62,944 nt of DNA from Candidatus Thorarchaeota archaeon (GTDB taxonomy: Archaea; Asgardarchaeota; Thorarchaeia; Thorarchaeales; Thorarchaeaceae): positions 1 through 62,944 of the forward strand of contig PRDH01000009.1 of the NCBI GenBank assembly GCA_003345545.1, written 5' to 3'. Of this stretch, positions 48,785 to 50,464 are shown in pieces; position 1 is the stretch's first letter; each line of letters starts with the position of its first letter. The translations under genes and the position numbers were made by a program. Below the pieces are notes generated by a model. The model saw nothing but the letters and a program-made list of their open reading frames with translations, was not told the origin of the DNA and searched no databases.

Positions 48785-50464
48785 TCACTTCTCAATTGTG
48801 CCTTGAATAAGCCCTCTAGTAATTGCGATGTAATAGTCGACCATATCAGCAGTAGACTTTGTCTTGACTATCTTTACTGCGATGTCCTGTTGCTTGAGTG
48901 CGGACACGCATCTCTCTGCGACGACCTCAAGCGGGTCATCAGTGAAGACCTTTAGCAGTTCGCCTCTCTGAAGTACGAATCTTGCCCCCTCAACACTCTC
49001 CAGAGTCTTCAGAGCCCGCGGGTCCACCTCTTCCAATACAATTCCCACTGCGAACCCTCTTGACGGCATGGACTCCTTCAACCTCGTTGGGGTCCCAAAT
49101 GCAACAAGGCTCTTTCCCCTCATGAATACCGCCACCTTATCGCAAAACTCTGCTTCAACGGGGTAATGGGTGATGACTATGATTGACGTGCCATACTCCT
49201 GGTTGATGAAGGTGAGATAATTCCAGAGTTCACTCCTATTGTCCGGGTCCAACCCCGAGGTTGGCTCATCCATTAATAGGACCTTGGGATTGTGCGCAAG
49301 CGCAATGGCGATGGACTCTCTTCTCTGCTGTCCTCCTGAGAGTTCGGACGTCGGACTATTTCCCTTCTCAAGAATCCCAAAGTCACGCAGAAGGGTCTTT
49401 CCTCTCTGGATGAGCTGCCATTCAGGAATGTTGTACTGCTTCCCAAAGGCGATAATGTTCTCCAGTGGAGTGAAGGTTTCATACATGTAGGATAAATCCT
49501 GCGGGCAATACCCGAAGAAGTGTCTGACCTTCTGAGTCTGTCGCGAGTCAATCCCTGCAATCCGAGATACTCCGGTGCTCGGTATGTCCCCGATCAGGGC
49601 TTTGACAGTGGTTGACTTACCAGCTCCCGATTCTCCTATGATTGCAAGCATCTCGCCCTCCTTGATGGAGAATGACACATTCTCTACGAGTTTCTGGCCG
49701 CTCTTAACAGCGACTGTCAGGTTGCGGATGGATACAACATCTCGGTATTGTGGAGCCTGTTTCCATGCGAAGGGCATGATGTAGACCTTATCGGCAAGAA
49801 CTGTTAGAGTTGGATTATACTTGGGTCCAACGAGCAGTTGTGGCTGTGCGATATAGTATATCTTCGGCTCTCCTACATCGCCTTCGGGCTCGACACGGAC
49901 CTCTAGAGAGCCCTCTGGCAAGATCGGTGCGGGTGCGGTGGTAGCTCCCACAACTACTCCCTCTATCATTATTGGAAGCCTGTCTGATGCTCGTCGTCCC
50001 CAGACAGTGCACGCCACATCTTGCCCCTTGACCTTTTCGAGCTCCTTGACTGCCTGCTGAAGATCCTTTCCATCATAGTAGAGGTCATCAGACATGTTCC
50101 TCTTTAGATAGTTCTGGACGGTGATCTGAGTGGCAGCCACATCCTCCTGACTTGAACCCTCGCCACCAACTGTGAGTATCCTGTCCAGTTCTCCGGCTCT
50201 CCTTCTGCGGAGATCTTCATCCACGTGGACAGCGATTCTCCTAGAGAGTACACTCTTCTTTACTTTCAGAATCCGCCCCTTGAAACGAACCTCTTTACCA
50301 GTATCGGTGAGAATGCCCTCTACTTCACAATGCAGTTCTCGGTCTTGGCGAGTGATACACCAGTCGATTGCCTCGCTTATCCTTGCGCCGGAGAAGTACG
50401 CCTCCTCAACAAAGGCTGGTTTCTCCTCTTCGTGCGCCCCGACATGTTCTGCGTCTGGTATCAT
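48785..50464 (-). CDS. ABC ATP-binding protein with N-terminal tandem TrmB-like effector (sugar)-binding subdomains
   Basis: GESGAGKST, LSGGQ, LLMDEPTSGLD, ITH; ~235-aa N-terminal extension containing EVEG....TG..V.F.GRI and LTVGGEGSSQED. Confidence 0.82.
   Translation of the reverse strand: MIPDAEHVGAHEEEKPAFVEEAYFSGARISEAIDWCITRQDRELHCEVEGILTDTGKEVRFKGRILKVKKSVLSRRIAVHVDEDLRRRRAGELDRILTVGGEGSSQEDVAATQITVQNYLKRNMSDDLYYDGKDLQQAVKELEKVKGQDVACTVWGRRASDRLPIMIEGVVVGATTAPAPILPEGSLEVRVEPEGDVGEPKIYYIAQPQLLVGPKYNPTLTVLADKVYIMPFAWKQAPQYRDVVSIRNLTVAVKSGQKLVENVSFSIKEGEMLAIIGESGAGKSTTVKALIGDIPSTGVSRIAGIDSRQTQKVRHFFGYCPQDLSYMYETFTPLENIIAFGKQYNIPEWQLIQRGKTLLRDFGILEKGNSPTSELSGGQQRRESIAIALAHNPKVLLMDEPTSGLDPDNRSELWNYLTFINQEYGTSIIVITHYPVEAEFCDKVAVFMRGKSLVAFGTPTRLKESMPSRGFAVGIVLEEVDPRALKTLESVEGARFVLQRGELLKVFTDDPLEVVAERCVSALKQQDIAVKIVKTKSTADMVDYYIAITRGLIQGTIEK

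What the first reader, a model, noticed from the sequence alone, without database searches (positions are those of the whole stretch)
49770..50420. ABC ATPase fused to duplicated TrmB-type sugar-binding subdomains
Seen: a ~235-aa N-terminal extension with two similar units (ELHCEVEGILTDTGKEVRFKGRI and DVACTVWGRRASDRLPIMIEGVV); the first ends in LTVGGEGSSQEDVAATQI. Known (recalled, not searched): the C-terminal subdomain of archaeal TrmB effector-binding domains has the same G...TG....L.GRV and VGG.....ED pattern, where the Gly and Glu contact maltose or sucrose. Inference: a transcription-factor sugar sensor transplanted onto an exporter ATPase, giving direct sugar control of transport. The second copy lacks the GG..ED loop.
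Basis: partly seen in the sequence, partly recalled or inferred. Interest (0 to 1): 0.7.

Follow-up and report, generated by a model that had tools for sequence, protein, structure and literature searches.

The report
TrmB-type double barrel on ABC ATPase
An Asgard (Thorarchaeota-type) exporter ATPase carries at its front end two copies of the small beta-barrel that the archaeal regulator TrmB uses to hold sugar; the fusion is real, conserved and not described in any paper I found, but what the barrels bind is untested.

Summary
Observation confirmed. ORF 48785-50464 (-), 559 aa, has a ~240-aa N-terminal extension in front of an intact ABC-2/ABCA-type ATPase. The quoted motifs are present.

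- **Duplication:** the two ~110-aa units are homologous (hhalign E 2e-15).
- **TrmB match, unit 1:** Pfam PF11495 at E 1.7e-10, above the cut-off. The AF2 model (pLDDT 82) superposes on TrmB 3QPH/2F5T residues 247-342 (Z 15.3, rmsd 1.8 A); the next fold scores Z 6.8. Its loop VGGEGSSQED aligns without gaps to TrmB VGGMFAVIED, so the Gly320 and Glu326 equivalents are present.
- **Unit 2:** in Thorarchaeota it has replaced this loop with an invariant AQPQ. Distant Asgard relatives keep the loop in both units.

Interpretation partly supported. The homology is solid; sugar control of transport is not shown. TrmB's N-subdomain is absent, three other contact residues differ, and the Glu326 equivalent varies (E/D/Q, twice A/L).

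The gene is near-universal in the window's own genome family (80/85 genomes) and occurs in Frey-, Sigyn-, Hel- and Ranarchaeia. It always sits with an ABC-2 permease, a second plain ATPase and a giant S8 membrane protein.

Most likely it is a ligand-binding gate on the motor, comparable to the Wzt carbohydrate-binding domain.

The scan has found this fusion before, in at least 17 other genomes.

The parts
48785..50464 (-). Whole gene: double-barrel ABC ATPase, 559 aa (P0001)
   Evidence: ORF list and translation. About 145 clusters of 553-566 aa share the whole architecture.
50420..50464 (-). Residues 1-15: variable leader, predicted disordered
   Evidence: pLDDT <50; mean pairwise identity 0.25.
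50093..50419 (-). Unit 1 (residues 16-124): TrmB C-subdomain-type barrel (strand, helix, five strands)
   Evidence: Pfam PF11495 residues 39-117 match profile 162-231, E 1.7e-10. VIA Z 15.3, rmsd 1.8 A over 93 residues against 3QPH 247-342. Foldseek E 1.2e-5.
50141..50170 (-). Unit 1 loop VGGEGSSQED (residues 99-108), equivalent to TrmB V318-D327; G101=Gly320, E107=Glu326
   Evidence: Translation. Gap-free hhalign alignment to TrmB VGGMFAVIED. TrmB contact list from PMC4158304. G100 and D108 are invariant even in relatives of 23-44% identity.
49745..50092 (-). Unit 2 (residues 125-240): second barrel, a duplicate of unit 1
   Evidence: hhalign unit 1 vs unit 2 E 2.2e-15. Unit-2 profile vs TrmB C-subdomains: probability 92.7%, E 4.4e-7. 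TrmB chains are its top PDB hits.
49838..49849 (-). Unit 2 AQPQ (residues 206-209), replacing the GG of the ancestral loop; Q207-P208-Q209 invariant in the 28 closer (Thorarchaeota-type) relatives
49070..49744 (-). ABC nucleotide-binding domain (residues 241-465) with intact Walker A, Q-loop, LSGGQ signature, Walker B and H-loop
   Evidence: Pfam ABC_tran 9.7e-27; sequence; closest solved relatives are ABCA7/ABCA1/ABCA4/ABCA3.
48788..49069 (-). C-terminal alpha/beta domain (residues 466-559), covered by the DrrA-type ATPase model
   Evidence: TIGR01188 match spans residues 259-548; secondary structure.
50474..51649 (-). ABC-2 permease (391 aa), 9 nt upstream
   Evidence: ABC2_membrane_3, 2e-27. 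Adjacent in Thor, Frey and Sigyn loci and one unnamed distant locus.
44425..48795 (-). S8-GIFT membrane protein (1456 aa); its start overlaps the ATPase stop. It has a conserved 78-aa cytoplasmic helical tail.
   Evidence: Pfam Peptidase_S8, IFT52_GIFT and DUF4350; tail alignment A8; an S8 gene is adjacent in the Thor, Frey and Sigyn loci.
43422..44432 (-). Second, plain ABC ATPase (336 aa), 33% identical to the NBD of the double-barrel ATPase
   Evidence: conserved in Thor, Frey and Sigyn loci.
36625..43458 (-). Giant TSP3-repeat/beta-propeller surface protein (2277 aa) with a TM segment and a ~120-aa cytoplasmic tail. It belongs to the Thor operon only.
   Evidence: Pfam; tail sequence. Present in Thor locus L035; not adjacent in Frey or Sigyn loci.

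Best explanation
The first ~240 residues are a tandem duplication of the strand-helix-beta-barrel that forms the second subdomain of the TrmB effector-binding domain (an Sm-like barrel). It is tethered by a flexible linker to one of the two ATPases of an Asgard-specific ABC-2/ABCA-type exporter. That exporter's conserved core is: barrel-ATPase, plain ATPase, one ABC-2 permease and a giant S8(-GIFT) membrane protein.

Shown: the homology, the duplication, the retained VGG-x5-ED loop in unit 1, the conserved gene set, and strong purifying selection on the barrels.

Inferred: unit 1 still binds a carbohydrate-type moiety with this loop. In TrmB the loop holds the non-reducing glucosyl unit almost on its own. 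Ligand occupancy would then be relayed to the ATPase cycle, so the module works as a cytoplasmic ligand gate on the motor.

There are two variants. My reasons are that the transporter is of exporter type and that the contact loop varies between species while its anchors stay fixed. In the Thorarchaeota relatives, unit 2 has exchanged the loop for an invariant QPQ motif and probably does something else, such as contacting a protein or the NBD.
For: Fold and profile:
- Pfam PF11495 E 1.7e-10, 41 bits against a cut-off of 22.2.
- AF2 model: pLDDT 81.7, pTM 0.77.
- The only Foldseek hits at E<=1e-3 are TrmB 3QPH and 2F5T, probability 1.00.
- VIA Z 15.3 and 14.6, rmsd 1.8 and 1.7 A, covering TrmB 247-342; the next hit is Z 6.8.

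Duplication: hhalign E 2.2e-15. Unit 2 against TrmB gives probability 92.7%.

Loop:
- VGGEGSSQED aligns to VGGMFAVIED without gaps.
- Gly320 and Glu326 are the two contacts conserved across TrmB, TrmBL1, Tgr and MalR, and six of TrmB's seven sugar contacts lie in this subdomain (PMC4158304).
- T98, G100 and D108 are invariant down to 23-44% identity, and distant lineages keep the loop in both units.

Selection: barrels show 70-71% mean pairwise identity against 85% for the NBD. The extension is found in 80/85 genomes of the window's own family and in other Asgard families.

Context: the four-gene core is conserved with shuffled gene order in Frey- and Sigynarchaeia.

Precedent: the Wzt carbohydrate-binding domain on a type-V ABC NBD recognises the non-reducing-end cap and modulates ATPase activity (PMC9445017).

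Tether: the full-length model has pTM 0.62 and a linker (235-237) below pLDDT 50.
Against: - No ligand-binding data exist.
- TrmB binds sugar in a cleft between two subdomains. The N-subdomain, with the sugar-recognition helix and Ser229, is absent here (only profile positions 162-231 match).
- The equivalents of Met321, Val324 and Ile325 are Glu, Ser and Gln, and the Asn305 equivalent cannot be assigned.
- Position 107 (=Glu326) reads E15/D4/Q7/A1/L1 in 28 relatives, position 101 reads G20/S7/A1, and two relatives delete three loop residues.
- The GG and Asp anchors could be conserved for structural reasons alone.
- Sm-like barrels also bind nucleic acids or proteins; WYL, Pelota and Lsm domains score Z 5-7.
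- I could not inspect model coordinates, so I do not know whether the loop faces solvent, unit 2 or the NBD.
Confidence: 0.45

Rival explanations
1. Protein-docking adaptor. The two barrels do not bind a small ligand. They hold a cytoplasmic part of another component of the apparatus (the tail of the S8-GIFT protein, the tail of the giant surface protein, or the partner ATPase) and so couple the motor to the surface proteins.
For: - The extension is almost as conserved as the catalytic domain. That fits a fixed protein partner better than a loop whose contact residues vary.
- Unit 2 acquired an invariant QPQ..L..P...P motif in the Thorarchaeota relatives.
- The S8-GIFT protein has a strongly conserved 78-aa cytoplasmic tail (57-97% identity over residues 1340-1456, which include it), recognisable even in Freyarchaeum.
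- The giant protein has a ~120-aa cytoplasmic tail.
- Sm-like barrels often mediate protein contacts.
- An earlier report of this scan on another genome proposed that the barrels grip the giant protein's tail (e1-5578218). That is a lead, not evidence.
Against: - The barrels persist in Frey- and Sigynarchaeia, where no giant TSP3 protein is adjacent. The giant's tail therefore cannot be the general partner.
- The most deeply conserved residues of the extension (T98, G100, D108) are the anchors of the TrmB sugar loop.
- No direct support for any partner was obtained.
Confidence: 0.25
2. Structural or assembly module with no specific ligand, or one that binds a non-carbohydrate ligand (nucleotide, nucleic acid, lipid head group). 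The tandem barrels would form an intramolecular pseudo-dimer that takes the place of the dimeric accessory domains seen on homodimeric NBDs. It would set the asymmetry of a heterodimeric motor.
For: - Two different ATPase genes accompany one permease gene, and only one ATPase carries the barrels.
- A Thor-specific, highly basic insertion (DLRRRRAGELD, residues 84-94) lies in unit 1.
- Fold neighbours include nucleic-acid-binding WYL, Sm and Hfq domains.
- The contact loop is variable.
Against: Retention of the exact VGG-x5-ED spacing with TrmB, in unit 1 everywhere and in both units in distant lineages, is hard to explain without a TrmB-like site. Fold scores for WYL and Sm domains are at background level (Z 5-7) against 15 for TrmB.
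Confidence: 0.2
3. Split effector-binding domain. Asgard TrmB-like regulators carry only the HTH plus the N-subdomain. They dock on the transporter-borne C-subdomain barrel, with ligand at the interface, so that transporter state controls transcription by sequestering the regulator.
For: - Among the matches listed from 201 Asgard genomes, the TrmB N-subdomain (profile 2-137) occurs in 250-290-aa HTH proteins.
- In the same list the C-subdomain (profile 147-232) occurs almost only in the 550-600-aa ATPase. One canonical full-length TrmB was seen.
- In TrmB the sugar bridges the two subdomains.
Against: - N-subdomain-only regulators are common in Asgard families without the fusion (f22: 31/40 genomes have such regulators but 0/135 have the fusion; f4: 3/3 against 0/3). 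There is no co-occurrence signal.
- None is encoded on the window's contig.
- No interaction test was run.
Confidence: 0.04

Closest known systems
TrmB effector-binding domain, second (C-terminal) subdomain (Thermococcus litoralis / Pyrococcus furiosus TrmB; PDB 2F5T, 3QPH; Pfam PF11495 positions ~147-233)
   Same: Same fold: a strand, a helix and a flattened beta-barrel (Z 15.3, rmsd 1.8 A over 93 residues; 19-20% identity). Shared landmarks are A32/A259, D34/D261, G50/G278, G63-R64/G291-R292 and the V-G-G-x5-E-D loop with the Gly320 and Glu326 equivalents.
   Different: No winged-helix DNA-binding domain and no N-subdomain or sugar-recognition helix. The barrel is duplicated in tandem and fused to an ABC ATPase. 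The equivalents of Met321, Val324 and Ile325 are polar. There is a 10-residue basic insertion before the VGG strand. Unit 2 lost the loop in Thorarchaeota.
Wzt carbohydrate-binding domain of the WzmWzt O-antigen exporter (type V / ABC-2 ABC transporter; PMC9445017)
   Same: An accessory sugar-recognising module fused to the NBD of an ABC-2-type exporter. It acts as a pair of beta domains and recognises a non-reducing-end sugar. It is flexibly placed relative to the NBD and modulates ATPase activity. This is an analogy of mechanism only.
   Different: The Wzt domain is a jelly-roll beta-sandwich, C-terminal to the NBD, and dimerises between two identical Wzt chains. Here the domains are Sm-like barrels, N-terminal, duplicated within one chain, and the motor has two different ATPases. 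There is no homology.
Regulatory domains on importer NBDs: MalK C-terminal domain, MetN C2 domain, ModC (from general knowledge; not searched here)
   Same: Ligand- or protein-binding beta domains appended to an ABC NBD that tune ATPase activity.
   Different: Those are C-terminal, belong to importers, mediate trans-inhibition or regulator binding, and have unrelated folds.
GldA/GldF/GldG gliding-motility ABC transporter (GldG carries the GIFT domain; from general knowledge plus Pfam and NCBIfam names)
   Same: ABC-2 permease, ATPase and a large two-TM accessory protein with a GIFT/DUF4350 domain.
   Different: The Bacteroidota system has no barrel extension, no S8 domain and no second ATPase. 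Its own substrate is unknown.

Membership tests
TrmB effector-binding domain, C-terminal subdomain (Pfam PF11495, C-terminal third) | Significant match to the curated profile, above the gathering score | tested here: met
   41.0 bits against a cut-off of 22.2, E 1.7e-10; residues 39-117 match profile 162-231. Unit 2 alone is weak (E 0.19).
TrmB effector-binding domain, C-terminal subdomain (Pfam PF11495, C-terminal third) | Fold: strand E-beta9, helix E-alpha4 and a flattened beta-barrel, superposable on 2F5T/3QPH residues 247-342 | tested here: met
   AF2 pLDDT 81.7. Foldseek E 1.2e-5 and 6.1e-5, probability 1.00. VIA Z 15.3 and 14.6, rmsd 1.8 and 1.7 A, 93 and 90 residues. Fold description from PMC4158304.
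TrmB effector-binding domain, C-terminal subdomain (Pfam PF11495, C-terminal third) | Family-wide conserved sugar contacts Gly320 and Glu326 in the V-G-G-x5-E-D loop | tested here: met
   Unit 1: G101 and E107, aligned without gaps. In 28 relatives position 101 reads G20/S7/A1 and position 107 reads E15/D4/Q7/A1/L1. Unit 2 of this protein does not meet it: AQPQ and T221.
TrmB effector-binding domain, C-terminal subdomain (Pfam PF11495, C-terminal third) | Remaining TrmB sugar contacts (Asn305, Met321, Val324, Ile325) | tested here: not met
   The aligned residues are E102, S105 and Q106. The Asn305 equivalent falls in a lineage-specific insertion and cannot be assigned. TrmBL1 and Tgr also keep only two of the seven contacts, so this argues for a different specificity and does not exclude membership.
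TrmB effector-binding domain, C-terminal subdomain (Pfam PF11495, C-terminal third) | Binds sugar | not testable with these tools
   Needs ITC, thermal shift or a ligand-bound structure.
TrmB-family transcription regulator (whole protein) | N-terminal winged-helix DNA-binding domain (PF01978) | tested here: not met
   No PF01978 match in P0001. The genome's six PF01978 matches lie on other contigs.
TrmB-family transcription regulator (whole protein) | Effector-binding N-subdomain with the sugar-recognition helix (Ser229) | tested here: not met
   Profile positions 1-161 are unmatched. The model contains only two barrels.
ABC-2 / ABCA-type (type V) exporter ATPase | ABC NBD with Walker A, Q-loop, LSGGQ, Walker B and H-loop | tested here: met
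   GESGAGKST, Q322, LSGGQQRR, LLMDEPTSGLD and H433 in the sequence. Pfam ABC_tran 9.7e-27. Best PDB relatives are ABCA7, ABCA1, ABCA4 and ABCA3.
ABC-2 / ABCA-type (type V) exporter ATPase | Partner ABC-2 permease encoded alongside | tested here: met
   ABC2_membrane_3 2e-27, 9 nt upstream; conserved.
ABC-2 / ABCA-type (type V) exporter ATPase | Membership of a named equivalog (DrrA, NodI, GldA and others) | tested here: not met
   The best is TIGR01188 drrA at 169 bits against a cut-off of 312. All other models are also below their cut-offs.
Wzt-type CBD-bearing polysaccharide exporter ATPase | Jelly-roll carbohydrate-binding domain C-terminal to the NBD | tested here: not met
   The accessory module is N-terminal and is an Sm-like barrel. 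Wzt description from PMC9445017. The resemblance is one of mechanism only.

The most novel reading that the evidence does not exclude
The transporter-borne barrel is the missing half of a split TrmB sensor. Asgard TrmB-like regulators have only the HTH and the N-subdomain. They would dock, with ligand at the interface, on the ATPase's C-subdomain barrel, so that transport state and transcription are coupled by sequestering the regulator at the membrane. The evidence does not exclude this, but it gives no positive support beyond the complementary domain distribution.
Probability: 0.04. Interest if true: 0.85.

Novelty: new variant of a known kind. Interest (0 to 1): 0.5.

Why it matters
Accessory ligand-binding domains on ABC motors show how transport is gated (MalK, MetN, ModC, Wzt). 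Here the domain comes from a family known only as the sugar-holding half of an archaeal transcription factor. It would be the first TrmB-type barrel seen outside a regulator and the first N-terminal, internally duplicated gate on an ABC-2/ABCA-like exporter.

The host system is a near-universal, Asgard-restricted surface apparatus of unknown function: an ABC-2 transporter, a dead-looking S8-GIFT giant and, in Thorarchaeota, a 2,200-aa adhesin-like protein. Its ATPase is most similar to eukaryotic ABCA lipid exporters.

Identifying the barrel's ligand is probably the shortest route to learning what this apparatus exports or senses. The ~225-aa soluble module can be tested directly with thermal shift or ITC.

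No paper on the fusion was found. Databases label it only 'ABC transporter ATP-binding protein'.

Tried and rejected
- BLASTP of unit 1 against unit 2 gave no alignment. The duplication is visible only at profile level.
- phmmer of the extension against PDB sequences found nothing relevant.
- The unit-1 family profile against PDB did not list TrmB at E<=10. Unit-2 and merged profiles did, weakly (E 0.02-0.06). The designed-toroid hits are repeat artefacts.
- A genome-contig scan with a 64-aa TrmB fragment printed by a tool found nothing. TrmB proteins were obtained instead through.
- Complex prediction of the extension (A2) with the S8-GIFT cytoplasmic tail (A8) scored 0.00, which is no verdict either way. 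The single job was then spent, so the giant protein's tail, the second ATPase and the regulators could not be tried.
- The split-sensor idea gained no co-occurrence support.
- A PilZ/c-di-GMP-type double barrel was considered and dropped: Foldseek hits 2GJG and 5EJL have probability 0.12-0.21 and rmsd >16 A.
- The cytoplasmic tail of the giant protein was compared with the C-terminal beta-sandwich of a 1094-aa neighbour in Freyarchaeum. No similarity was found.
- Stand-alone single barrels (145-163 aa) have no shared gene context.
- The divergent 780-aa neighbour has no Pfam or PDB sequence match.
The orientation of the loop relative to unit 2 and the NBD could not be examined.
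Full report
**What is there.**
- The finding lies in ORF 48785-50464 on the minus strand (559 aa, P0001). Its coordinates correspond to residues ~16-232.
- All three quoted strings are present, at residues 43-65, 149-171 and 97-114. I re-translated the key sub-ranges.
- The C-terminal 320 residues are a complete ABC ATPase. Pfam ABC_tran scores 9.7e-27, and Walker A, Q-loop, LSGGQ, Walker B and H-loop are intact.
- The best NCBIfam model is the DrrA-type ABC-2 ATPase, below its equivalog cut-off.
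- The closest solved sequences are eukaryotic ABCA7, ABCA1, ABCA4 and ABCA3 (E 5e-59 to 5e-54). The best prokaryotic chain is 4YER at 7e-39.
- The extension belongs to the same reading frame. The upstream permease ends 9 nt before the ATG. About 145 database clusters of 553-566 aa share the whole architecture at 64-89% identity within the extension.

**The duplication is real.**
- BLASTP sees nothing between the halves.
- Family profiles of residues 16-124 and 125-240 align over 97 columns with hhalign probability 98.5% and E 2.2e-15.
- An AlphaFold2 model of residues 1-245, built on 29 sequences including relatives at 23-44% identity, has pLDDT 81.7 and pTM 0.77. It shows the same order of elements twice: a strand, a helix and five strands.
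- A joint alignment of both units has invariant glycines at G50/G156 and G63/G169.

**The TrmB match is real.**
- Pfam PF11495 (Regulator_TrmB) matches residues 39-117 to profile positions 162-231 of 233, at 41 bits against a gathering score of 22.2 (E 1.7e-10).
- Foldseek against the PDB gives only two hits at E<=1e-3: TrmB 3QPH_A (1.2e-5) and 2F5T_X (6.1e-5), both with probability 1.00.
- The Foldseek-independent search of 48,161 chains puts the same two on top. Z is 15.3 and 14.6, rmsd 1.8 and 1.7 A over 93 and 90 residues, with model 18-124 on TrmB 247-342. The next fold, Pelota's Sm-like domain, scores Z 6.8.
- The TrmB review describes this second subdomain as a strand, a helix and a flattened seven-stranded barrel (PMC4158304). 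That matches the model.
- Unit 2 points to TrmB independently. Its family profile has TrmB chains as top PDB hits (E 0.03-0.06). It aligns to a profile of TrmB C-subdomains with probability 92.7% and E 4.4e-7.
- In one distant relative, the best Pfam PF11495 stretch lies in unit 2.

**The sugar loop.**
- I fetched TrmB proteins using a fragment that a tool had printed. Their C-termini read VKVGGMFAVIEDYEST, which is V318-G319-G320-M321-F322-A323-V324-I325-E326-D327.
- hhalign aligns unit 1's VGGEGSSQED (residues 99-108) to this stretch without gaps. Hence G101 = Gly320, E107 = Glu326 and D108 = Asp327.
- According to the review, the non-reducing glucosyl of maltose or sucrose contacts Asn305, Gly320, Met321, Val324, Ile325 and Glu326, all in this subdomain. 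Ser229 of the other subdomain adds one contact. Only Gly320 and Glu326 are conserved across TrmB, TrmBL1, Tgr and MalR.
- The limits are as follows.
  - The equivalents of Met321, Val324 and Ile325 are Glu, Ser and Gln.
  - The Asn305 equivalent falls in a lineage-specific basic insertion.
  - In 28 relatives position 101 reads G20/S7/A1 and position 107 reads E15/D4/Q7/A1/L1.
  - Residues 102-106 are the most variable stretch of unit 1, and two relatives delete three of them.
  - G100 and D108 are invariant.
- T98, G100 and D108 stay invariant in relatives of only 23-44% identity.
- In those distant relatives, unit 2 also carries VGG...D-V. In Thorarchaeota it reads A-Q-P-Q with an invariant Q207-P208-Q209, and Thr replaces the Asp. 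The 'degenerate' second copy is therefore a conserved, re-purposed loop and not decay.

**Distribution.**
- Scoring the extension against 1.84 billion representative proteins found only 18 clusters. Every full-length one is an extension-plus-ABC protein.
- Named members come from Thorarchaeota, Freyarchaeum deiterrae, Sigynarchaeota, Helarchaeota and Ranarchaeia. All are annotated simply as ABC transporter ATP-binding proteins.
- Of 400 genomes in the phylum, 126 carry the extension. These include 80 of 85 genomes in the window's own family and all or nearly all genomes of six other families. None of the 135 genomes of f22 and none of the 31 of f8 carry it.
- A few genomes also encode stand-alone single barrels of 145-163 aa, with no common context.
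- Among the matches listed from 201 Asgard genomes (57 further matches were not listed), the TrmB N-subdomain occurs in 250-290-aa HTH regulators. This genome has three. The C-subdomain occurs almost only in this ATPase. One canonical full-length TrmB was seen.

**Context.**
- In the window the gene is second in a five-gene minus-strand operon: ABC-2 permease, barrel-ATPase, S8-GIFT membrane protein (1456 aa), plain ATPase (336 aa, 33% identical to the first NBD, motifs intact) and a 2277-aa TSP3/propeller surface protein.
- A Thorarchaeota relative at 69% identity has the same five genes. It also has the same divergent unknown gene and EamA gene.
- In Freyarchaeum and Sigynarchaeota the order differs: the S8 gene is divergent, followed by barrel-ATPase, permease and plain ATPase. 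No giant protein is adjacent.
- The conserved core is therefore four genes, with two different ATPases for one permease. A heterodimeric motor in which only one subunit carries the barrels is the simplest reading. This is an inference.

**Mechanism.**
- The barrels are under strong purifying selection: 70-71% mean pairwise identity against 85% for the NBD and 25% for the leader.
- In the full-length model the linker (235-237) has low confidence and pTM falls to 0.62. This suggests a flexibly tethered module.
- I commit to a ligand gate. Unit 1 binds a carbohydrate-type moiety through the retained loop, and occupancy is relayed to the ATPase cycle. My confidence is 0.45.
- Within that reading, I slightly prefer capture of a sugar-bearing substrate end over sensing of a free metabolite. 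My reasons are:
  - the transporter is of the exporter (ABC-2/ABCA) type;
  - the Wzt carbohydrate-binding domain sets a precedent for exactly this on a type-V exporter, recognising a non-reducing-end cap and modulating ATPase (PMC9445017);
  - TrmB's barrel holds the non-reducing glucosyl nearly on its own;
  - a variable contact loop between fixed anchors suits a ligand that differs between species.
- The rivals are a protein-docking adaptor (0.25), a structural or other-ligand module (0.2) and a split TrmB sensor completed by N-subdomain-only regulators (0.04). No co-occurrence supports the last.

**Novelty.**
- Three literature searches found no description of the fusion.
- Public databases already attach PF11495 and PF00005 to these proteins automatically.
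- It is a new variant of a known kind, namely an accessory ligand-binding domain on an ABC motor, built from a domain known only in regulators.
- This scan has noted the same fusion in at least 17 other genomes, and several follow-ups reached the same fold assignment. One proposed that the barrels grip the giant protein's tail. I reached the fold result before reading these notes. I could not test the tail idea, but the giant protein's absence from the Frey and Sigyn loci argues against it as the general function.

Noticed in passing
window 51822-54164 (+): A 780-aa ORF, divergent from the operon (172-bp shared upstream region), has no Pfam match and no PDB sequence match. A 740-aa unknown gene occupies the same position in a Thorarchaeota relative (L035 6361-8583), next to an EamA gene as here.
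   Followed up: partly
window 44428-44661 (-), last 78 residues of the S8-GIFT protein: After its C-terminal TM segment the S8-GIFT protein has a helical cytoplasmic tail ending in a near-invariant VSDKVGGV. Residues 1340-1456, which include it, are 57-97% identical across 88 relatives. The tail is recognisable even in Freyarchaeum (P0150), so it probably contacts a cytoplasmic partner.
   Followed up: partly
window 48788-49744 (-): The closest solved relatives of the NBD are eukaryotic ABCA lipid exporters (ABCA7, ABCA1, ABCA4, ABCA3; E 5e-59 to 5e-54). This is well ahead of the best prokaryotic chain (4YER, 7e-39), although each ABCA hit sums two matched NBDs. It may be of interest for the Asgard-eukaryote relationship of ABCA transporters.
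   Followed up: no
own genome contigs C12 (L001 1504-2280 -), C13 (L003 1120-1890 +), C48 (L004 1153-1992 +): Three TrmB-family regulators of 256-279 aa carry the HTH plus only the N-subdomain of the effector-binding domain (profile 2-137). The same truncated form is widespread among the 201 Asgard genomes searched, and only one canonical full-length TrmB (G071) was listed.
   Followed up: partly
L030 2896-3384 (-), L031 1901-2392 (-), L032 2948-3385 (+): Stand-alone single-barrel proteins (145-163 aa) related to unit 1 occur in a few Asgard genomes. One sits next to a HAD_2 hydrolase. A HAD hydrolase also follows the ABC cluster in Sigynarchaeota, which is a faint hint of a sugar-phosphate link.
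   Followed up: partly
L018 553-3837 (+), Freyarchaeum deiterrae: A 1094-aa helical-repeat protein with a C-terminal DUF11/CARDB-like beta-sandwich (weak Pfam hit) lies beside the S8 gene of the Freyarchaeum cluster. It has no detectable similarity to the cytoplasmic tail of the Thor giant protein.
   Followed up: partly
window 50183-50215 (-), residues 84-94: A highly basic insertion (DLRRRRAGELD) precedes the VGG strand of unit 1. It is conserved in the closer (Thorarchaeota-type) relatives and in P0124, and is absent from TrmB and from more distant relatives. Its function is unknown.
   Followed up: no
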